Shown piece after piece: positions 1-8,385 of a stretch of DNA of 64,000 nucleotides. Location of the stretch: the sequence record PQ850618.1; one strand, written 5' to 3'. Origin of the DNA: Escherichia phage ManiWeber_Bas99. A program made the translations under genes and the position numbers. The notes below the pieces were generated by a model. It was not told the origin of the DNA. It saw only the letters and a program-made list of their open reading frames with translations, and searched no databases. The first letter of the stretch is position 1. Every line of letters starts with the position of its first letter.

Positions 1-1428
1 ATGTACCAGTTGAATCCTGCTTTAAGAGAAGTCTGGAAGACGAAAGCGCGATACAAAGTCATATACGGCGGTCGTGCATCTTCCAAATCGCACGATGCCG
101 CTGGTTTTGCTATTTATTTGGCGGCAAACTTCAAATTAAAATTCCTTTGCGTTCGACAATTCCAGAACAAGATTTCTGAATCAGTATATACGCTATTAAA
201 AGACAAAATAGAGATTTCTGATTTTAAAGATGAGTTCAATTTATTAAAGAACTCTATTGAACATAAAAGAACAAAATCTGAATTCTTATTTTACGGTATC
301 GCACGCAACGTTGACGAAATCAAATCAACAGAAGGTGTTGACGTTCTTTGGCTTGAAGAAGCGCACGCGCTGACTGAAGAGCAGTGGGACATTATTGAGC
401 CGACAATTCGTAAGGAAGGGTCAGAAATATGGATCATATTTAACCCTGATGAAGAGGCTGATTTCGTCTACCAGAACTTTGTCATGCGACCGCCGAAAAA
501 TGCCATCGTTAAGAAGATTAACTGGCAGGACAATCCATTCTTGTCGCAAACAATGCTGGATGTTATCGCTGGCATGTATGAGCGCGACCCGAAAAAGGCA
601 GAACACGTTTATGGCGGAGTGCCGAAGACAGGCGGCGATAAGTCGGTCATCAACCGTGCATTCGTCAAAGCCGCGCTAAACCTCCACAAACACCCTACGC
701 TGGGATGGAGCTTGTCAGGGTCTAACCGTATAGGCTTCGACGTGGCGGACGACGGCGACGACTTAAACGCCACAGCATTTGTCACAGGCAACGTATTACG
801 TGGCATCAAGACATGGGAAGGTCTGGAAGATGAATTGCTTAAGTCCGCAAGCGGAGTCTGGAAAGACGCATTGACATTCGGCGCATCAATCACCTATGAC
901 GCCATCGGTGTTGGTGCATTTGCTGGTTCAAAATTTGATGAGCTTAATGAGTATGCAATCCATGAAAATCCAACATTCCCAAGAATCGAATTTAATGCGT
1001 TCAACGCGCAAGGTGCTGTTGATGATCCTGATGACGTTTTCCTTGAGTTACCACACGTTGAAATACTCAATAAAGACCATTTCGCAAACATAAAAGCGCA
1101 AAAATGGACTGAGATTGCCGAACGATTCAGGAAGACATATGAGTATGCGACAGGGCAGGCCGTATATCCGACTGATGAGTTGATTTCCATCGACACAGAC
1201 GGCATCCCAGAACTTGGGATTCCTGCTTGGACTGCGGAAGAGATTGAGACGTTTCTTTTTGAGATGTCAGCGCCGCGCAAAGATACGTCTGTTCTTGGTA
1301 AGTTCAAAGTTGAATCGAAAAAAGATATGGCAAAGCGTGGAGTCAAATCGCCTAACAAAGCGGACGCCGCAATCATGGCATTGATGAAACCAATTGTTGC
1401 AGCATCCGGCTTCTTCTCTAACCTTTAA
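1..1428 (+). CDS. terminase large subunit
   Basis: 475 aa; N-terminal Walker A-like GGRASSKSHD as in PBSX/terminase_6 large subunits; followed by portal and MuF-like genes. ORF starts at the window edge, so the true start may lie upstream. Confidence 0.8.
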   Translation: MYQLNPALREVWKTKARYKVIYGGRASSKSHDAAGFAIYLAANFKLKFLCVRQFQNKISESVYTLLKDKIEISDFKDEFNLLKNSIEHKRTKSEFLFYGIARNVDEIKSTEGVDVLWLEEAHALTEEQWDIIEPTIRKEGSEIWIIFNPDEEADFVYQNFVMRPPKNAIVKKINWQDNPFLSQTMLDVIAGMYERDPKKAEHVYGGVPKTGGDKSVINRAFVKAALNLHKHPTLGWSLSGSNRIGFDVADDGDDLNATAFVTGNVLRGIKTWEGLEDELLKSASGVWKDALTFGASITYDAIGVGAFAGSKFDELNEYAIHENPTFPRIEFNAFNAQGAVDDPDDVFLELPHVEILNKDHFANIKAQKWTEIAERFRKTYEYATGQAVYPTDELISIDTDGIPELGIPAWTAEEIETFLFEMSAPRKDTSVLGKFKVESKKDMAKRGVKSPNKADAAIMALMKPIVAASGFFSNL

Positions 1429-1431
1429 CAA

Positions 1432-1671
1432 CTAAAGCATTCCGTGCTGAAGGTCAAGCTTTCTTGCGGCAAACGACCTGGCACGGAATCGCTTACCCGC
1501 TCTTACTGCCTGTCGAATCTTCTTTTGCAAACACTTACGGTCAAAATCGTTGCGGTCGACGGCTTCGAGTAAATCGCGACGCAACGCACCCAGTGTCGAC
1601 TTTTCGGAGACTTCAACGCCCAGCGCGGCTGCAACATCTTTCAAAACATCGAGTTCGGTTAAAGTTCTCAT
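1432..1671 (-). CDS. hypothetical protein, basic C-terminus (79 aa)
   Basis: Minus-strand ORF overlapping the upstream gene by 4 nt (ATGA); no recognisable motif. Confidence 0.4.
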   Translation of the reverse strand: MRTLTELDVLKDVAAALGVEVSEKSTLGALRRDLLEAVDRNDFDRKCLQKKIRQAVRAGKRFRARSFAARKLDLQHGML

Positions 1672-2084
1672 TTGATAATCCCCTTGATGTCTGATTCTGC
1701 CATAAATATTGGAGTGCCGCCGCCAGGAACAATCGAGCGTGTGACCTTGTCAAACATATCGTTTTCTTCAACTTGAATACGATAAAATTTATTTTTGGAT
1801 GAAGATGGGCACAATCCCATAAATTTGCCGATGCCGCGAACGCATTCATCTTCAAAGTATACTGTTTCACCTTGAATGGAGTCGATGTCGTCTACTGGAT
1901 AGACCTTGCGACCCAATAGCCACTCATCCAAAGTCGCCTGCAAGACGTTGCGCGCATCTAAAATCCACGGGTCAATAGTAGCACCTTCATATCGCGCAGC
2001 AGTGGCCTTTGCCAGTTCTTCATATTCGCATACGTTAACGACTTCGCCGTTGTGCAAGACGACAAATACAATTGTTGTGCTCAT
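1668..2084 (-). CDS. hypothetical protein (138 aa)
   Basis: Strong SD AAAGGAG 6-7 nt upstream of ATG; own promoter-like element; opposite orientation to flanking packaging genes. Confidence 0.55.
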   Translation of the reverse strand: MSTTIVFVVLHNGEVVNVCEYEELAKATAARYEGATIDPWILDARNVLQATLDEWLLGRKVYPVDDIDSIQGETVYFEDECVRGIGKFMGLCPSSSKNKFYRIQVEENDMFDKVTRSIVPGGGTPIFMAESDIKGIIK

Positions 2085-2246: not shown

Positions 2247-4622
2247 ATGAAAATTCTTGGCATAAAACTCTGGGAGAAGACGCAACCAGAAGCCGAACCA
2301 GCGGAGATGCCGCCAGGCGACCCATTGGCACCGTTTGAACGCCTTGAAAGGCGCGGCAGCGGTCAACGCTGGGAAAAGACTGAAAGCAATCGACCGACCT
2401 TTAAAACGGTTGATGACTTCCCTTTATATGAGCCTGATATTAATGGCGATGGTGTTGCAATCATAAAAGGTCGTTCAGTCGATTCCGCAACAGTATCCAA
2501 AAAGGTTATGGATAATGCCTTAAAGAACATCAGTTCAGAAGGGCAAGTCAACCCATACACAGTACCTATTCAACTTCAAAACTGGTATTTGTCACAGTCA
2601 TTCATCGGCTATCAAGCTTGTGCCATCATCGCACAGCATTGGCTGGTGAACAAGGCGTGTTCCATGGTAGGCCGCGATGCGGTCCGTAAAGGTTGGGAAG
2701 TCAAATCCAGTTCTGAGTCAGAATTGTCAGTACAGGCAAGCGAACGCCTAAAGCAAATTGATAAAGAATTTAATATCAAAGAGCACTTAGTTGAAGCCGA
2801 ACGATTCAAAAATATTTTTGGTATCCGCGTCATCATATTTGATGTGCGTAGCGATGACCCAGAATATTACAGCAAGCCTTTTAACATTGATGGCGTGACA
2901 AAGGGGTCTTATAAGGGAATCATTCAGGTTGACCCTTATTGGATGATGCCGTTTCTGACGTCTGAAAACACAGCAGACCCTGCATCACAGCACTTCTATG
3001 ACCCAGAATATTGGGTAATCAGCGGACAACGTTATCATCGCAGCCACCTCATAATCTTGCGCAACGATGAGCCAGCTGATATTCTCAAGCCGACTTATAT
3101 TTACGGCGGCATTCCTCTGACTCAGCAGATTTATGAACGCATCTATGCCGCTGAACGTACCGCCAACGAAGCGCCATTGCTGGCGATGTCCAAGCGTACA
3201 ACGACGCTGCGGACCGACGTTGACAAGGCTATTGCCAATGAGCGGTCTTTTGCAGAACGTCTGATGATGTGGATCAAGTACCGCGACAACTATGCAGTCA
3301 AAGTGCTTGGCCAAAAAGAAGAGATGGACCAGTTTGACATCAACTTGTCAGACTTCGACAGCATCATCATGAACCAGTACCAGCTTGTGGCCGCAATCGC
3401 AAAAGTTCCGTCGACCAAACTGCTTGGGACTTCGCCAAAAGGCTTTAACGCCACTGGTGAATTCGAGATGGTCAGCTATCACGAAGAGTTGGAAACGTGC
3501 CAGCAGCATGACCTGACAAAAATTCTCGACCGCCATTACAAAATCCTTCTCAAATCAGAAGGGGTGGATGTCGATGTTAAGGTTGCATGGGAACCAGTTG
3601 GCTCACTTACTGCTACTCAACTTGCAGAAATCAATGATAAGCGAGCCAACACTGGCAAAACTCTTATTGATGCTGGCGTCATTTCTCCTGATGAAGAGCG
3701 CGACCGCATCAAAGACGACAAAAACAGCGGCTACAACCGTCTGCCGGAAGACGCAGCAGAAGAAACCCCAGGGATGTCTCCAGAGAATATGGCATTGCTT
3801 GGCAAGTCTGCTGGTGAAGTCCTGCAAGGTAAGGCCGATATTGAACAGGCGAAAGCTGATGTCGTTAAGATGGGCGGCCAGTTCTATAGCGAAACAGGTA
3901 TTATGCCAGAGGGTGCCGCGCGCGGTGAGTTGGCGGAAAACCCTGACAAAGCGCCTGTCGAAATCAACATGGACGATACCGATGATGAATCAAGCCATCA
4001 GGTTGATGTCCTAACGCAGTTGAAAGAAGGGCTGGAGGGTATTGCGGATTACTACCTGAAAGAAGGTCAGGATGTGGATTTTGACCCTCAAAAAGATTCA
4101 CGGTCGGTGCAACCGTCTACCCTTCCAAGCGTTAAAGGACACGTCGTCAACTTACGCCACAACGTGGGTAAAATGGACGCAGCATCATTACCTAAGATGA
4201 AGTTGCACGGAATGATTCTTGGCATTGAGAATCCGCGAAACAGCATTCGTAGAGGAAACAGCCTTGACGGTGAATGGGCCGTGAAGATGCCGCACCACTA
4301 CGGATTCATCAAGGGCACCAAGGGCGCAGACGGTGATGAAGTCGACTGCTTTGTGGGTCCAAATCTGAAGTCGCCGAAAGTCTTTATCGTGAACCAAAAC
4401 GATAACTACTCTGGCGAGTTTGATGAACACAAGTGTATGCTTGGATTCGATTCAGCAGAAGAAGCGAAAGAAGCTTATCAAGCATCATTTGGTAACGGTT
4501 GGAACGGATTCGACTCAATCCACGAATTAGATGTGAACTCATTCAAGGAGTGGTTGAAGGGTGATTGCTCTCAAGCATACGGAGCACTCAATAATCCTAC
4601 TAATTCACCGAAGCAAGGTTGA
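2247..4622 (+). CDS. portal protein with C-terminal inorganic-pyrophosphatase-like domain
   Basis: About 790 aa immediately after TerL and before the MuF-like gene, the expected portal position; ATG at 2247 preceded by AGGTGG. C-terminal ~130 aa contain HHYGFIKGTKGADGDEVDCFV and AEEAKEAYQASF, resembling the PPase motifs YPxNYGxIxxT..DGDPxDVLV and [12 protein letters not shown]. Confidence 0.7.
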   Translation: MKILGIKLWEKTQPEAEPAEMPPGDPLAPFERLERRGSGQRWEKTESNRPTFKTVDDFPLYEPDINGDGVAIIKGRSVDSATVSKKVMDNALKNISSEGQVNPYTVPIQLQNWYLSQSFIGYQACAIIAQHWLVNKACSMVGRDAVRKGWEVKSSSESELSVQASERLKQIDKEFNIKEHLVEAERFKNIFGIRVIIFDVRSDDPEYYSKPFNIDGVTKGSYKGIIQVDPYWMMPFLTSENTADPASQHFYDPEYWVISGQRYHRSHLIILRNDEPADILKPTYIYGGIPLTQQIYERIYAAERTANEAPLLAMSKRTTTLRTDVDKAIANERSFAERLMMWIKYRDNYAVKVLGQKEEMDQFDINLSDFDSIIMNQYQLVAAIAKVPSTKLLGTSPKGFNATGEFEMVSYHEELETCQQHDLTKILDRHYKILLKSEGVDVDVKVAWEPVGSLTATQLAEINDKRANTGKTLIDAGVISPDEERDRIKDDKNSGYNRLPEDAAEETPGMSPENMALLGKSAGEVLQGKADIEQAKADVVKMGGQFYSETGIMPEGAARGELAENPDKAPVEINMDDTDDESSHQVDVLTQLKEGLEGIADYYLKEGQDVDFDPQKDSRSVQPSTLPSVKGHVVNLRHNVGKMDAASLPKMKLHGMILGIENPRNSIRRGNSLDGEWAVKMPHHYGFIKGTKGADGDEVDCFVGPNLKSPKVFIVNQNDNYSGEFDEHKCMLGFDSAEEAKEAYQASFGNGWNGFDSIHELDVNSFKEWLKGDCSQAYGALNNPTNSPKQG

Positions 4623-4623
4623 T

Positions 4624-5475
4624 ATGGCTTTTAAAGCTTCGAAAAAACGTGAACGCCGCTCACCCGATAGAGTCGGGCGCGGCAGTCCGATAATCCCATC
4701 CAACGCTATTGCGATGGCCTATCGTCGTGAGATGAAAGGTCTTTGCTATGCGATGATTGACGACTATCAAGCAGGAATTGCTGAGTGGCTTGAAAAGAAG
4801 CAGGTTAAAAAGTTCTTTGCGCAAGACTCTGCTGATTCAACTTTTCAGACCTTGATGAAGCGACTGCAACTGAAATGGGCAAAAGCTTTCGCCCGTGTCG
4901 GGTCAAAGATTGCCGCAGATTTCATCAAGTCAGTTGAAAAGGGTGCCACTTCTGCTACATTTGCAAGTCTTAAATCTGCAGGAATAGAAGCGCCAAAAGC
5001 CACATATAATAAATTCGTTGAGAACACTCTTAAAACAAGCGAGACGTTCAACACGACTTTAGTGACTAAGGTTGGCGAAGATATTCACAACAGGGTGTAC
5101 GAAGCGGTGATGCTTTCGCTGACTTCGCCAGACCCAGCGCAACAAGGCACGTCAGGCATTCAGGCGGCATTAAGAAATGTAAAACACTTCTCTGCAAAAC
5201 GCGTAGACCTTATCGCTAAAGACCAAACGAGCAAACTTTATTGCGTATTAAGTGATGAAAGGATGCGACAGAATGGCGTTGAGGAATTTGAGTGGGCGCA
5301 TTCAGGAGCAGGCAAAGAGCCGCGAATATCGCATGAGCATGTCGATGGAATGAGATTCAAGCTTGATGACAAACGCTTATGGGAAGTAGGTGGAGAACTT
5401 AAGTTCAAAAAGGGTGACATCGGTCCTCCTGGATGGGCGATACACTGCAAGTGCAGAAAAATACCAATTATCTGA
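4624..5475 (+). CDS. head morphogenesis protein (Mu gpF / SPP1 gp7-like)
   Basis: 284 aa directly after the portal gene; TerL-portal-F synteny typical of Mu-like head modules. Confidence 0.6.
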   Translation: MAFKASKKRERRSPDRVGRGSPIIPSNAIAMAYRREMKGLCYAMIDDYQAGIAEWLEKKQVKKFFAQDSADSTFQTLMKRLQLKWAKAFARVGSKIAADFIKSVEKGATSATFASLKSAGIEAPKATYNKFVENTLKTSETFNTTLVTKVGEDIHNRVYEAVMLSLTSPDPAQQGTSGIQAALRNVKHFSAKRVDLIAKDQTSKLYCVLSDERMRQNGVEEFEWAHSGAGKEPRISHEHVDGMRFKLDDKRLWEVGGELKFKKGDIGPPGWAIHCKCRKIPII

Positions 5476-5482
5476 GGTCATT

Positions 5483-6403
5483 ATGACGATACCAATCAAC
5501 ACATTCCCTCTATCTGGACAAACTCCAGTCTTGCCTGCGGTGTATGCTAATGGCTTGGCGATTGTCTCAGAATTCACTTCTGATAAAAACTTGATTGTTC
5601 CACTGAGCCCGCCGCTTGCATCGGGGTACAACTCAGTAGGTCAATTCTTTATGATTGGCAATGATGGCGATTCGACCAGCAAGCCTAATCTGACATTGTC
5701 TGTACCTAAGATGAACATCACCGACGTTCAAACTGGCTTGACTGCATCAACAATCACCATTGCTTTTGGAGAAGCAGTGATTATAGGAATGGAGTCTGGA
5801 GGGTCCAAGAATGCTGTCGCCGTTAAGGTAGTCAAATCCAGCGACAACCAATACACTTTACCAGCTGCGACGGCTTCCGTTCTCGGCGGCGTCAAAATAG
5901 GAAGCGGAATAAGCGTCGCAGGTGACGGTACAATTAGCGTCACTCAATACTCATTGCCGATTGCGTCAGCATCTACTTTAGGCGGCGTAAAGGTCGGTAC
6001 AACTCTATCAATTGATGGTTCCGGTGTGCTTAACGCAGCGGCAAGCACCGTCCAGAATGCCACGAACAGTGTTAGCAATCCTCCAACCACTTTGGTTAAT
6101 CTGGCAACATTAAACCTTCCTGCAGGCAAGTGGCTGGTCACGGCAAGCCAATTGACCGTTGCAACAGCAGGCGTTCAAGCGAATACCGGAATTACAGTCA
6201 AATTGTCAACAAGCAATTCAGATATTACGGATGATGCATTTACCATGTCAGCTGGCATTCGGGCTGCAGGTCGTTTCGGCGGCAACATCCCAACAAAAGT
6301 AATTACTCTTGCCGCGCCTGGTAATGTGTATTTAAACTATCAGTGCACCGACGCGTTGACATCTACCGTTTACGGACAGATCACCGCAATTAAGCTGAAC
6401 TAA
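5483..6403 (+). CDS. virion protein with tandem LGGVK(I/V)G repeats (fiber-like)
   Basis: ATG at 5483 with GAGGT SD; two repeats ASVLGGVKIGSGISVAGDGTISV and ASTLGGVKVGTTLSIDGSGVLNA; Gly/Thr/Ser-rich. Confidence 0.45.
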   Translation: MTIPINTFPLSGQTPVLPAVYANGLAIVSEFTSDKNLIVPLSPPLASGYNSVGQFFMIGNDGDSTSKPNLTLSVPKMNITDVQTGLTASTITIAFGEAVIIGMESGGSKNAVAVKVVKSSDNQYTLPAATASVLGGVKIGSGISVAGDGTISVTQYSLPIASASTLGGVKVGTTLSIDGSGVLNAAASTVQNATNSVSNPPTTLVNLATLNLPAGKWLVTASQLTVATAGVQANTGITVKLSTSNSDITDDAFTMSAGIRAAGRFGGNIPTKVITLAAPGNVYLNYQCTDALTSTVYGQITAIKLN

Positions 6404-6589
6404 AGAGGAAGTTATGCAAAAGATTATTCAGTCACGTTATGTTAAAGTGCGAAATATTAATTGCAACTCTTTGCTTTCTTGGAAATGGGCTGTTTATGAC
6501 TCGATGTTGATTGGCGTTTTAGTGGCAGGAGTGCTATTTAATATTCACTGAATTCATCGGCAAAGGATTGCCGAGAGTTTTATACGTAT

Positions 6590-6860
6590 AATGACGTATC
6601 ATCCGTATCAAGTAAGTTGTTGTTTTCAAAAGAATCTTACGGATGATACGGATGATACGCGTTGCCGCCGTACTATATAGGAATTCAAATAAATTAATTT
6701 AAAATTATATATCTAATTTAATTTTATTTTTTTATAAACTCTTATATGTGAAAAGTATCCGTATCATCCGTATCATCCGTATCACACCAGTGATAGCGCG
6801 GCTTATACACCGATACGGATAAAAATACGCCTCATTTTATCCGTATCATCCGTATCACAC
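6590..6860. repeat. iteron-like repeat element A
   Basis: Units of CATCCGTATCA in both orientations (6594-6610 forward, 6639-6660 reverse, 6756-6785 forward triple, 6811-6820 reverse, 6839-6858 forward) around an AT-rich core carrying GAATTC; homologous to the element at 58.7 kb. Confidence 0.6.
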
Positions 6861-6914
6861 TAATAAAGGCGCGGCTATATCGGTTGTTATACATATTCAA
6901 ACCATAATTATTGT

Positions 6915-6943
6915 TTGCCTAAGTTTTTTTCATTAGATATAAT
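6915..6943 (+). promoter_or_regulatory. sigma70-like promoter (TTGCCT-17-TATAAT) upstream of scaffold gene
   Basis: Hexamers at 6915-6920 and 6938-6943 with a 17-nt spacer, about 25 nt upstream of the start codon. Confidence 0.4.
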
Positions 6944-6966
6944 ACACAATACTTATTTGAGGGTGG

Positions 6967-8385
6967 ATGCGAATGCAAACGGCACGCGAAATTGACAAAA
7001 ATGGATTCTTGACGATTATGGGTTGTCCGATTTCGTCATTTGGCATTTTTGATTATTCTGCTGGTCAAGTTGGTCTTGATGGTGATCCGAATCGCATCGT
7101 AAAAGTCTATCGCCCTGAGTCAGCGGTGAAAGACCCCGAAGCGATAGATTCATTCAAAAATATCCCTTTCATCGACAATCACGAAATGCTTTCTGGATTT
7201 GAAGGTGATGAGGATAACACAGCACCCGAAGAGTATGGCGTTGATGGCGTTCTAACTGGCAATGTTTATTATGACAAGCCATGGATGCGCGGCGACCTTA
7301 AAGTGTTTAGCCGTCGTCTGAAGAAGGCCATTGATTCTGGAAAGGTTGACTTGTCTTTGGGCTATGACTGTGAATTCATCATACAGTCTGGAGAGTTTGA
7401 CGGGCAGCCGTATGAAGTGGTACAGACAACTCTTCGCGGCAACCACATTGCTCTCGTGGACGTTGGTCGAGTACCAGGTGCACGGGTGCTGGATGGTCGT
7501 TGCTTTGACCATCTTTGTTTGACGACTGTAACACCATCCAACGAGGATTTAGACATGCCAAAACCGTTAAAAGGTAAAGCGCGTGATAATGCTGTTGAAC
7601 AGCTGAAATCACTGATCCCTGCGCTCGAACAATTTCTGAATGAAGAGAGCACCGAAGCGGCTCATCAGGACGAAGTTGAAGTGAAAGCAGAAGAGAAGGA
7701 TTCAACCGAAGAACGTGAAGAAGTGATGGTTGATCCAGAAGTTAAAGCAGAAGCTGAAGAAACTCCAGAAGGTGAAGAGAAGTTTGAAGTTGAAACTGAA
7801 TCTCACGCTGGCGGCGAGCTTCCGCAACTGATCAGCCAAATCGAAGCACTTATTGCAAAACTGAAAGGTGGCGCGGTAGGTGATGAAGAAGAAGTTGAAG
7901 CCGAAGTCAAAGACGAAGAAGTTGAAGTCAAGGCTGAAGATGTATCACCTTGCGACAAAGCTGAAGATGTGGTTAGCGGCCTGCAAAACAGCAACGTAAA
8001 GGGGGCTTCGGTCGAAAAAGATGACAAACCGACAAAAGCGGCGAAAGCGTCGCCAGGTCCAGCAAAAGGGGAACACTCAATGGCATCTGATTCAGCAGTT
8101 GCTGCTTTCTACGCTGATTCTGCTCGTAAGAATAGCCTCTACCAGCGCCTGTCTAAAGTTGTTGGTGCCTTTGATCATGCAACTATGGACTCCAAGTCCG
8201 TAGCGAAATATGGCGCTAAAAAGTTAGGCTTGAAGTGCGTTGATGGTGCTGAGTTTGACGTGGTGGATAATTATCTGCGCGGCGTTGAACACGGTCAAAA
8301 ACAGCGTGTAGTCGCAAAACAAAAGGCCGCTGCGGATTCTGCAGCGACTGACGAAGCATTTGAAGCTTGGTTGAAAGGGGAATAA
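6967..8385 (+). CDS. scaffolding / prohead core protein
   Basis: 472 aa; N-terminal region resembles DUF2213-type phage head proteins (from memory, unverified); central acidic Glu/Lys/Val repeats typical of scaffold proteins; lies upstream of the capsid gene. Confidence 0.5.
   Translation: MRMQTAREIDKNGFLTIMGCPISSFGIFDYSAGQVGLDGDPNRIVKVYRPESAVKDPEAIDSFKNIPFIDNHEMLSGFEGDEDNTAPEEYGVDGVLTGNVYYDKPWMRGDLKVFSRRLKKAIDSGKVDLSLGYDCEFIIQSGEFDGQPYEVVQTTLRGNHIALVDVGRVPGARVLDGRCFDHLCLTTVTPSNEDLDMPKPLKGKARDNAVEQLKSLIPALEQFLNEESTEAAHQDEVEVKAEEKDSTEEREEVMVDPEVKAEAEETPEGEEKFEVETESHAGGELPQLISQIEALIAKLKGGAVGDEEEVEAEVKDEEVEVKAEDVSPCDKAEDVVSGLQNSNVKGASVEKDDKPTKAAKASPGPAKGEHSMASDSAVAAFYADSARKNSLYQRLSKVVGAFDHATMDSKSVAKYGAKKLGLKCVDGAEFDVVDNYLRGVEHGQKQRVVAKQKAAADSAATDEAFEAWLKGE

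What the first reader, a model, noticed from the sequence alone, without database searches (positions are those of the whole stretch)
4150..4622. Portal protein carries a C-terminal inorganic-pyrophosphatase-like domain
The single ORF 2247..4622 has the expected portal position (TerL, portal, MuF-like) but is 200-250 aa longer than typical portals. Its last ~130 residues contain MPHHYGFIKGTKGADGDEVDCFV, DNYSGEFDEHK and AEEAKEAYQASF. These line up with the family I pyrophosphatase active-site region (E. coli Ppa [44 protein letters not shown]), and the three metal-binding Asp of the DGDxxD cluster are retained. I do not know of a portal-pyrophosphatase fusion having been described.
Basis: partly seen in the sequence, partly recalled or inferred. 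Interest (0 to 1): 0.75.

Follow-up and report, generated by a model that had tools for sequence, protein, structure and literature searches.

The report
Phage portal with pyrophosphatase-like tail domain
The portal protein of this E. coli phage really does end in a small pyrophosphatase-like enzyme domain that travels inside the virus head, but this fusion was described in 2017 and is common, so the only open question is what the enzyme does.

Summary

The novelty claim fails. Iyer, Burroughs and Aravind (2017) defined this InPase domain and named portal fusions, citing the BcepF1 orthologue. All 120 best database relatives carry the fusion, and the domain family has about 12,000 cluster representatives. 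New context found here includes split-gene versions at the same position, an independent fusion to an HK97-type portal, fusions to the prohead protease and DarA_N, and variants extended by an ADP-ribosyltransferase. Together these mark InPase as capsid-interior cargo. Its activity, substrate and release are untested.

The parts
2247..4622 (+). Complete portal::InPase gene (791 aa plus stop)
   Evidence: Single ORF. PHROG 4660 covers aa 16-777. Orthologous to Pa193 gp19 portal, PDB 9b41, E=5.6e-251 over aa 14-779. Intact in 28 phage genomes.
2247..2564 (+). Variable N-terminal region (aa 1-106), predicted disordered
   Evidence: Mean identity 0.27 among 45 orthologues. pLDDT <50. Not seen in the E217 or Pa193 maps. 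Peptides aa 12-32 and 45-53 are nevertheless present in Wifcevirus virion MS.
2610..3650 (+). Portal core, Phage_portal_3 (aa 122-468)
   Evidence: PF06381 E=3.3e-88. E217 gp19 8fvh E=9.5e-190. Mean identity 0.68 with 97 invariant columns.
3783..3896 (+). Predicted C-terminal barrel helix (aa 513-550)
   Evidence: AF2 helix 513-550. The E217 and Pa193 papers describe an alpha-helical barrel that projects into the head and is modelled up to residue 528.
3897..4181 (+). Flexible acidic linker (aa 551-645) containing one predicted helix (aa 580-603)
   Evidence: Mean identity 0.24, no invariant column, length 86-135 aa among orthologues. pLDDT <50 at aa 553-579 and 617-636. 89 % covered by fully tryptic virion peptides.
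4182..4571 (+). InPase domain (aa 646-775; Pfam envelope aa 649-771): a trimmed family-I-pyrophosphatase fold
4224..4238 (+). I-E-N-P-R strand (aa 660-664); E661 is proposed to be equivalent to E. coli Ppa E20
   Evidence: E661 and N662 are invariant in 45 orthologues, and E661 also in 19 distant homologues. Greedy hhalign pairs IENP with IEIP, and R668 with K29 (low confidence).
4287..4355 (+). Core active-site stretch MPHHYGFIKGTKGADGDEVDCFV (aa 681-703): Y685=Y55, D695=D65, D697=D67, D700=D70 of E. coli Ppa
   Evidence: phmmer and hhalign alignments. 0 of 300 shuffles reach 11/23 identities. D695 and D700 are invariant; D697 is D in 40, E in 4 and N in 1 of 45.
4419..4433 (+). F-D-E-H-K strand (aa 725-729): invariant D726, E727 and K729, proposed equivalents of the Ppa D102/K104 region
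   Evidence: Invariant in both alignments. The equivalence is inferred from strand order in the AF2 model, not from a residue-level structural alignment.
1..1428 (+). Context: terminase large subunit
   Evidence: PF04466 E=3.1e-37. Annotated TerL in phage Mansfield.
4624..5475 (+). Context: MuF-like minor head protein immediately downstream
   Evidence: PF04233 E=4.4e-7. The same order portal-(InPase)-MuF is found in BcepF1 and in the split-gene phages.
6967..8385 (+). Context: DUF2213 / Pa193_gp24-type protease-scaffold protein
   Evidence: PF09979 E=5e-35. Annotated capsid maturation protease in Mansfield. It has by far the highest score and PSM count (852) of the proteins read in part 1 of the ECML-117 MS table.

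Best explanation
The gene encodes the genuine dodecameric portal of a Wifcevirus. Its C-terminus continues past the barrel helix into a ~100-residue flexible linker and a ~130-residue InPase domain (Pfam PF18823). InPase is a trimmed branch of the family I inorganic pyrophosphatase fold.

Shown:
- The fold and homology.
- Strict conservation of the metal-binding and phosphate-binding residues (E661, R668, Y685, D695, D697, D700, D726, E727, K729).
- Physical presence of the linker and InPase parts in purified virions.
- Their invisibility in cryo-EM maps of the orthologous portals, which fits mobility.

Inferred:
- The domain is an active Mg2+-dependent hydrolase of a P-O-P (phosphoanhydride) bond. 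A water activated by the Asp-bound metal pair would attack pyrophosphate or a small nucleotide-like diphosphate.
- Twelve copies sit inside the capsid around the inner mouth of the portal.
- The portal is simply one of several capsid-interior vehicles that load this enzyme as cargo, so that it is present at the very start of the next infection. Other vehicles are the ClpP-type prohead protease, DarA_N internal head proteins and giant polyvalent proteins, and some phages use a separate gene between portal and MuF.
- Reaching the cytoplasm would require proteolytic release. The ~100-aa tether (about 35 nm fully extended, my estimate) is much shorter than the ~130-150 nm tail of the Pbunavirus relatives.

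The architecture is the one already described by Iyer et al. in 2017.
For: Identity and fold:
- PF06381 and PF18823 hits.
- PHROG 4660 covers the full length.
- PDB 9b41 and 8fvh are orthologous portals.
- AF2 domain model, pLDDT 87.
- 27 PPases are hit by the InPase profile.
- Some InPase members pass the PF00719 cut-off, bridging the two families.

Selection on catalysis:
- The catalytic-type residues are invariant in 19 distant and 45 orthologous sequences, while the flanking linker has no invariant column.
- InPase is 42 % identical between phages whose portals are only 20 % identical.

Virion location:
- ECML-117 and vB_Eco4M-7 virion MS peptides cover 89 % of the linker and 58 % of InPase. 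They include GADGDEVDCFVGPNLK and the C-terminal peptide aa 772-789.
- No density for residues 529-765 in Pa193 or E217.

Cargo logic:
- Portal, InPase and MuF occur as separate genes with an ATGA start/stop overlap.
- Independent fusion to a PF04860 portal.
- InPase+ClpP in Cbastviruses, one annotated as a virion structural protein, and InPase+DarA_N in an 'internal head protein'.
- A stand-alone InPase next to DarA_N genes.
- Relatives extended by a C-terminal ADP-ribosyltransferase.
- Prior description by Iyer et al. 2017.
Against: - No enzymatic assay exists for any PF18823 member.
- The domain lacks recognisable equivalents of several Ppa active-site residues. E31 becomes G670.
- Twelve enzyme copies are negligible next to the host's own abundant Ppa (my estimate; copy numbers were not measured here), so bulk PPi clearance is not a convincing role.
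- The MS data are shotgun tryptic data. They cannot tell whether the domain is still attached to the portal, and preparations may contain non-virion protein.
- No cleavage site or ejection has been demonstrated.
Confidence: 0.8

Rival explanations
1. The physiological substrate is not inorganic pyrophosphate. It is instead a nucleotide-derived molecule with a P-O-P bond, such as an alarmone, an ADP-ribose-type or NAD-derived immune signal, or a dinucleoside polyphosphate. The released domain would be an injected counter-defence enzyme.
For: - Iyer et al. proposed nucleotide-like substrates from NUDIX, GNAT and TmrB associations.
- The domain keeps company with anti-defence and effector modules: DarA_N, ADP-ribosyltransferase, 2H phosphoesterase and DarB-like polyvalent proteins.
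- Residues that bind the leaving-group phosphate in Ppa (R43, K142) are not identifiable, while InPase-specific aromatic and polar residues (W677, H684, Q717, F725, W752) are conserved.
- A low copy number per virion suits a low-abundance signal better than bulk PPi (inference).
Against: - No biochemical data.
- The fusion to an ATP-dependent DNA ligase, which releases PPi, fits true PPi hydrolysis.
- The retained residues are exactly those that bind metals and phosphate in PPases.
- A tethered domain cannot reach the cytoplasm unless it is cleaved, and cleavage has not been shown.
Confidence: 0.3
2. The domain stays covalently attached to the portal for the life of the virion and acts inside the capsid or procapsid. 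It could be a structural, assembly or DNA-end-handling module at the inner mouth of the portal channel, with or without catalysis.
For: - Virion MS shows contiguous fully tryptic coverage of the linker with no reported semi-tryptic peptide.
- N-terminal peptides are also retained.
- The E217 barrel is ordered only when DNA is present, so the C-terminal arm lies next to packaged DNA.
- The domain is fused to two unrelated portal families.
Against: - In related phages the same domain is a free-standing gene, or is fused to other head-interior proteins, so covalent attachment to the portal is not needed.
- A purely structural role does not explain invariant catalytic-type residues across about 12,000 family representatives in many architectures.
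- No ordered density is seen.
Confidence: 0.25
3. The domain is a catalytically dead relic of a pyrophosphatase, kept only as a folded spacer or binding module.
For: - Several Ppa active-site residues have no identifiable counterpart.
- It is below the PF00719 threshold.
- D697, the general-base equivalent, varies to E or N in 5 of 45 orthologues.
Against: E661, R668, Y685, D695, D700, D726, E727 and K729 are invariant at about 50 % overall identity and in 19 more distant homologues. The PROSITE-type signature is intact.
Confidence: 0.08
4. The long ORF is an assembly or sequencing artefact, or an unnoticed frameshift that joins a portal gene to a separate downstream pyrophosphatase gene.
For: Split portal and InPase genes do exist in distant phages.
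Against: - The ORF is intact in 28 independently sequenced phages and in all 120 best clusters.
- The split forms lack the ~100-aa linker and use an ATGA overlap, so they are a different gene arrangement.
- Virion peptides run through the linker in the same frame.
- The PDB 9b41 entry lists the 765-aa fused sequence.
Confidence: 0.01

Closest known systems
BcepF1.124 (YP_001039808.1 / ABL96855.1), portal-InPase protein of Burkholderia phage BcepF1, the example cited by Iyer, Burroughs and Aravind 2017
   Same: Same two Pfam domains in the same order (PF06381 aa 138-484, PF18823 aa 667-794). Same synteny TerL ... portal::InPase - MuF ... prohead protease-like gene. About 53 % identity over 97 % of the query.
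   Different: 862 aa rather than 791 aa, with a longer linker and tail. Different host genus. Nothing functional is known for either protein.
Pseudomonas Pbunavirus portals gp19 of Pa193 (PDB 9b41) and E217 (PDB 8fvh)
   Same: Orthologues (E=5.6e-251 and 9.5e-190). The alignment runs through the InPase domain, including the identical HHYGFIKGTKGADGDEVDCFVGPNL stretch.
   Different: Only residues 94/97-528 were modelled. Residues 529-765 had no density, and neither paper mentions a pyrophosphatase domain. In Pa193 the first 93 residues were not found by LC-MS, whereas N-terminal peptides are found in Wifcevirus virions.
Family I soluble inorganic pyrophosphatase (E. coli Ppa; Pfam PF00719)
   Different: Below the PF00719 cut-off. 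About 45 residues shorter. According to Iyer et al. it lacks the beta-hairpin after strand 1. E31 is replaced by Gly, and R43, D97, Y141 and K142 could not be identified. It is a domain of a virion protein, not a free cytoplasmic hexamer. No activity has been measured.
Packaged and injected phage effectors: T4 Alt ADP-ribosyltransferase, P1 DarA/DarB internal head proteins, MuF-fused toxins (as reviewed in PMC5512222)
   Same: An enzyme carried inside the head next to the portal/MuF module. InPase is found fused to or beside DarA_N, ADP-ribosyltransferase and MuF-neighbouring genes.
   Different: Here the carrier is the portal itself, a permanent structural ring, so delivery would need a cleavage that has not been shown. 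Injection of any InPase protein has not been demonstrated.
Split-gene arrangement portal / InPase / MuF in uncultured phages (loci L007, L009)
   Same: Same head-module order. The InPase is 42 % identical to the window domain.
   Different: InPase is a separate 144-148 aa protein with no linker. The portals are only about 20 % identical.

Membership tests
Pfam InPase (PF18823), the phage/polyvalent-protein branch of type I pyrophosphatases | Score above the curated gathering threshold over most of the model | tested here: met
   157.1 bits against a cut-off of 26.8, model positions 12-135 of 135, E=2.9e-46.
Pfam InPase (PF18823), the phage/polyvalent-protein branch of type I pyrophosphatases | Conserved acidic residues that coordinate the metal ions (Iyer et al. 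2017) | tested here: met
   D695, D700, D726 and E727 are invariant. D697 is D or E in 44 of 45. E661 is invariant.
Pfam InPase (PF18823), the phage/polyvalent-protein branch of type I pyrophosphatases | Absence of the beta-hairpin insert between the first and second core strands that all solved PPases have | tested here: inconclusive
   hhalign needs gaps on the InPase side between the K29 and Y51 equivalents, and the domain is about 45 aa shorter than Ppa.
Pfam InPase (PF18823), the phage/polyvalent-protein branch of type I pyrophosphatases | Occurrence in (pro)phage virion-associated or polyvalent proteins | tested here: met
   Portal fusion within the head module. Peptides found in virion MS. 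Relatives occur in ClpP, DarA_N and giant polyvalent proteins.
Classical family I inorganic pyrophosphatase (PF00719 / EC 3.6.1.1) | Score above the PF00719 gathering threshold | tested here: not met
   18.0 bits for the whole protein and 20.2 bits for the domain alone, against a cut-off of 23.5. Only model positions 32-56 are matched.
Classical family I inorganic pyrophosphatase (PF00719 / EC 3.6.1.1) | Signature D-[SGDN]-D-[PE]-[LIVMF]-D-[LIVMGAC] (PROSITE PS00387, pattern recalled from memory) | tested here: met
   Single match, DGDEVDC at aa 695-701.
Classical family I inorganic pyrophosphatase (PF00719 / EC 3.6.1.1) | PPase-type beta-barrel fold | tested here: met
Classical family I inorganic pyrophosphatase (PF00719 / EC 3.6.1.1) | Full set of polar active-site residues (E. 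coli numbering E20, K29, E31, R43, Y51, Y55, D65, D67, D70, D97, D102, K104, Y141, K142) | tested here: not met
   Identifiable: E20 (E661), K29 (R668), Y55, D65, D67, D70, and the D102/K104 region (D726/E727/K729). Changed: E31 to G670 and Y51 to M681. Not identifiable: R43, D97, Y141, K142.
Classical family I inorganic pyrophosphatase (PF00719 / EC 3.6.1.1) | Mg2+-dependent hydrolysis of PPi | not testable with these tools
Phage portal protein (Phage_portal_3, PF06381) | Profile match plus orthology to a portal seen as a dodecamer in a virion structure | tested here: met
   PF06381 E=3.3e-88. E217 gp19 and Pa193 gp19 cryo-EM portals match at E=9.5e-190 and 5.6e-251. Position between TerL and MuF.
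Polyvalent / virion-delivered effector proteins (Iyer et al. 2017) | Packaged in the virion | tested here: met
   Published MS of purified vB_Eco4M-7 and ECML-117 particles contains 6 InPase and 7 linker peptides, all exact matches to the window protein.
Polyvalent / virion-delivered effector proteins (Iyer et al. 2017) | Delivered into the host cell with the DNA | not testable with these tools
   No ejection or cleavage data were found. The tether-length argument is inference only.

The most novel reading that the evidence does not exclude
The portal arm is a disposable delivery tether. During head maturation or ejection the InPase domain is cut from the portal and injected ahead of or with the DNA. 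There it hydrolyses a host nucleotide-derived alarm or immune signal that contains a pyrophosphate bond, rather than bulk PPi. That would make InPase a very widespread (about 12,000 cluster representatives) and so far uncharacterised class of pre-packaged anti-defence enzyme.
Probability: 0.2. Interest if true: 0.7.

Novelty: already known. Interest (0 to 1): 0.25.

Why it matters
As a discovery it does not matter much. The fusion, the domain family (Pfam PF18823) and the hypothesis of virion delivery were all published in 2017, and the window is a known phage genus.

It still matters as an open experimental problem. [quoted passage not shown] Two high-resolution virion structures left these 237 residues unmodelled and unmentioned. 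No member of a family with about 12,000 cluster representatives has been assayed.

The material collected here makes the question directly testable in tractable E. coli (BASEL Bas98-101) and Pseudomonas phages. That material comprises the virion peptides, the split and fused gene arrangements, the independent fusion to a second portal family, and the ADP-ribosyltransferase-extended variants.

Tried and rejected
- Residue-level mapping of the whole active site onto E. coli Ppa failed. hhalign aligns only aa 681-704 with confidence. Greedy modes gave near-zero-confidence alignments for the C-terminal half, pairing EFDEHK with the unrelated Ppa EYDHIK. Model coordinates are not exposed, so no superposition was possible.
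- The word-indexed homologue search with the domain alone returned only 22 short proteins. Several of these are probably fragments of portal fusions from 1-3 kb contigs.
- Gel-band evidence for portal processing was not obtainable. The Pa193 supplements are not held. The PB1-like proteome paper (Ceyssens 2009) is not held. The SCUT-S1 supplement has no peptide lists.
- Literature searches for PF18823 and for portal-borne ejected effectors found nothing experimental. The BASEL Wifcevirus section does not mention the domain.
- Internal translation start for a free InPase: the ATGs at 4173, 4197 and 4212 have no convincing Shine-Dalgarno sequence upstream. Not pursued further.
- Rfam and tRNA scans of the window found nothing.
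- The assembly-artefact explanation was rejected.
Full report
WHAT IS THERE

The window is the genome of an Escherichia/Shigella Wifcevirus. The portal region is 99.7 % identical to Shigella phage CWP003 and Wifcevirus WFH, and 98.9 % to ECML-117. ORF 2247..4622 is a single uninterrupted frame of 791 codons. It lies between the large terminase (1..1428, PF04466) and a MuF-like gene (4624..5475, PF04233). Further downstream are a head-fibre-like gene, a DUF2213/Pa193_gp24 protease-scaffold gene and a cement protein.

Pfam finds two domains above threshold: Phage_portal_3 (aa 122-468, E=3e-88) and InPase PF18823, 'Inorganic Pyrophosphatase' (aa 649-771, 157 bits against a cut-off of 26.8, E=3e-46). 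The classical Pyrophosphatase model PF00719 matches only aa 679-703 and stays below its cut-off (18-20 bits against 23.5). PHROG 4660 covers aa 16-777 in one stretch, so the two-domain protein is itself a recognised phage protein family.

IS THE PYROPHOSPHATASE RESEMBLANCE REAL?

Yes.

- An AlphaFold2 model of aa 629-791, built on 19 homologues, is confident (pLDDT 87.4, pTM 0.80).
- The 50 best Foldseek hits are all family I pyrophosphatases, best E=2e-4. TM-scores are only 0.4-0.48, so the relationship is distant.
- A profile of the domain hits 27 distinct PDB pyrophosphatases and nothing else apart from the orthologous portal.
- hhalign aligns M681-G704 with Ppa Y51-P75 at 89 % probability. 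This gives Y685=Y55, D695=D65, D697=D67 and D700=D70.
The protein contains exactly one match to the PPase signature pattern, DGDEVDC at aa 695-701.
- Some InPase family members (P0144, P0145, P0146) do pass the PF00719 cut-off, which links the two families.

In DNYSGEFDEHK the invariant residues are D726, E727 and K729, and the first Asp (D719) is D in only 26 of 45 orthologues. AEEAKEAYQASF against [12 protein letters not shown] gives 7/12 identities, reached by 1.7 % of shuffles. A greedy hhalign puts that helix on Ppa helix A, not helix B, with negligible confidence. Which Ppa helix it corresponds to remains unresolved.

Greedy alignment and strand order suggest E661=E20 and R668=K29, with E31 replaced by G670. 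R43, D97, Y141 and K142 could not be located. The domain is therefore a trimmed pyrophosphatase fold that keeps the metal cluster and part of the phosphate-binding set.

NOT AN ARTEFACT, AND UNDER SELECTION

The ORF is intact in 28 phage genome records. All of the best 120 protein clusters found with the full-length query carry PF06381 plus PF18823, mostly on 65-74 kb contigs.

In an alignment of 45 orthologues at about 50 % identity, mean identity to the window protein by region is as follows:

- N-terminus: 0.27
- Portal core: 0.68
- Barrel region: 0.49
- Linker (aa 541-645): 0.24, with no invariant column and length 86-135 aa
- InPase domain: 0.61, with 21 invariant columns

E661, N662, R668, W677, Y685, D695, D700, Q717, D726, E727, K729 and Y744 are invariant. 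D697 is D in 40, E in 4 and N in 1.

The full-length AF2 model (pLDDT 67) shows a barrel helix at aa 513-550, disorder at 553-579, a helix at 580-603, disorder at 617-636, and then the well-folded domain at 646-775.

IS IT IN THE VIRION?

The orthologous Pseudomonas portals have been solved in situ: E217 gp19 (8fvh) and Pa193 gp19 (9b41). They match the window protein at E=9.5e-190 and E=5.6e-251. Both papers model residues 94/97-528 only and state that residues 529-765 have no density. Neither mentions a pyrophosphatase.

Necel et al. 2020 (PMC7048862) report shotgun MS of purified vB_Eco4M-7 and ECML-117 particles. The 88.6-88.7 kDa portal was identified with 20-22 peptides. I mapped the 22 ECML-117 peptides from their Supplementary Table S3 onto the window protein, and all are exact matches. 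Coverage by region is as follows:

- N-terminus: 28 %
- Portal core: 19 %
- Linker: 89 %
- InPase domain: 58 %

The InPase peptides include the active-site peptide GADGDEVDCFVGPNLK, VFIVNQNDNYSGEFDEHK, and the C-terminal GDCSQAYGALNNPTNSPK (aa 772-789). The vB_Eco4M-7 table shows the corresponding peptides.

The linker and enzyme domain are therefore present in virion preparations and are translated in one frame with the portal. These data cannot say whether they are still covalently attached.

WHAT COMPANY THE DOMAIN KEEPS

tblastn finds the domain in 470 phage records, including 294 Pseudomonas, 70 Vibrio and 26 Escherichia. An exhaustive profile search finds 12,047 representatives of 50 %-identity clusters, 8,022 of them at E<=1e-30. 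Most of the top hits are proteins of 1,000-6,650 aa.

Architectures verified here:

- Portal+InPase in BcepF1, with the same synteny as the window.
- InPase+ClpP protease in Cellulophaga phage phiST (annotated virion structural protein) and Tenacibaculum phage Larrie.
- InPase+DarA_N in a Xanthomonas 'internal head protein'.
- A stand-alone InPase next to two DarA_N genes and LydB in a Vibrio element.
- Portal - InPase - 250-370 aa - ADP-ribosyltransferase in close relatives of the window protein.
- An HK97-type portal (PF04860) with a C-terminal InPase, which is an independent fusion to a different portal family.
- InPase with an ATP-dependent DNA ligase, with GNAT, and with a 2H phosphoesterase.

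In two distant phages the order is TerL ... portal (474-545 aa) - InPase (144-148 aa) - MuF, as separate genes. In L007 the portal stop overlaps the InPase start (ATGA), and in L009 an 89-aa ORF lies between portal and InPase. Neither split form has the linker. In L007 the InPase is 42 % identical to the window domain while the portal is only 20 % identical.

The common denominator is a location inside the head. The carrier varies.

HOW IT MOST LIKELY WORKS

Shown: fold, conserved catalytic-type residues, presence in virions, flexible attachment.

Inferred:

- The domain is an active metal-dependent phosphoanhydride hydrolase.
- Twelve copies hang from the portal barrel into the capsid.
- The portal is one of several vehicles that load this enzyme so that it is available at the first moment of the next infection.

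Because the ~100-aa tether is far shorter than the tail, action in the cytoplasm would need proteolytic release, which has not been shown.

On the substrate, the ligase fusion favours genuine PPi removal. The low copy number, the missing leaving-group residues and the anti-defence neighbours favour a nucleotide-derived pyrophosphate compound, as Iyer et al. also suggested. I rate fold and homology at about 0.95, catalysis at about 0.75, delivery to the host at about 0.4 and PPi as the physiological substrate at about 0.4.

COMPARISON WITH WHAT IS KNOWN, AND NOVELTY

Iyer, Burroughs and Aravind (J Bacteriol 2017, PMC5512222) defined the InPase domain of polyvalent proteins. They noted that it lacks the beta-hairpin of solved type I PPases. 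[quoted passage not shown]

BcepF1.124 is the orthologue of the window gene. Pfam PF18823 derives from that work. UniProt names several viral proteins 'Inorganic pyrophosphatase domain-containing protein', and GenBank names one orthologue 'inorganic pyrophosphatase' (P0083).

The finding is therefore already known as an architecture. What remains unknown is the biochemistry and biology, and no experimental paper was found.

VERDICT

Interest is low to moderate (0.25).

Noticed in passing
Relatives P0038, P0044, P0094, P0108, P0124 (1191-1321 aa), found with window 2247-4619: Close relatives of this portal continue beyond the InPase domain for another 250-370 residues of unknown function and end in an ADP-ribosyltransferase exotoxin domain (PF03496). 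This gives portal-InPase-?-ART in a single polypeptide.
   Followed up: partly
L007 4367-7316 and L009 4298-7402: In distant phages with the same head-gene order, the InPase is a separate 144-148 aa gene placed between portal and MuF. In L007 it has an ATGA stop/start overlap with the portal gene and is 42 % identical to the window domain, although the portals are only 20 % identical.
   Followed up: yes
P0175 / L010 6001-8229: An HK97-type portal (PF04860), unrelated to Phage_portal_3, also carries a C-terminal InPase. The contig also encodes GTP cyclohydrolase I, QueC and QueF (a 7-deazaguanine pathway) and an intein-containing protein.
   Followed up: partly
window 1432-2084, minus strand: Two small ORFs (79 and 138 aa) sit on the opposite strand between terL and the portal gene, inside an otherwise plus-strand head module. 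They are annotated as hypothetical proteins in phage Mansfield and have no Pfam hit.
   Followed up: partly
window 6967-8385: The DUF2213/Pa193_gp24 protein has by far the highest score and PSM count (852) of the proteins read in part 1 of the ECML-117 virion MS table. Its peptides come both from the N-terminal protease-like part and from the acidic middle. It therefore persists in mature virions, as reported for Pa193 gp24.
   Followed up: partly
window 4287-4313 (peptide MPHHYGFIK, aa 681-689): In both published virion MS data sets this single InPase peptide has 170-180 spectral matches, far more than any portal-core peptide (1-4 each in ECML-117). The linker and InPase parts are much better covered than the core. 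Whether this reflects accessibility or an excess of free C-terminal fragment is unknown.
   Followed up: no
window 5483-6403: A head-fibre-like protein (PF11133, E=3e-6) contains an internal near-repeat: LPAATASVLGGVKIGSGISVAGDGTISV and LPIASASTLGGVKVGTTLSIDGSGVLNA.
   Followed up: no
window 6404-6966: A stretch of about 560 bases between the head-fibre-like gene and the DUF2213 gene has no ORF of 50 aa or more on either strand. Phage Mansfield annotates only a 45-aa CDS there. There is no Rfam hit.
   Followed up: no
window 3984-4055 (aa 580-603): Within the otherwise unconserved and disordered linker, AF2 predicts one helix with moderate confidence. The orthologue consensus there shows a Leu heptad-like pattern (LxxLxxxLxxxxD), followed by a conserved PSV...PSVxG segment just before the InPase domain. 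This could be a docking or processing site.
   Followed up: no
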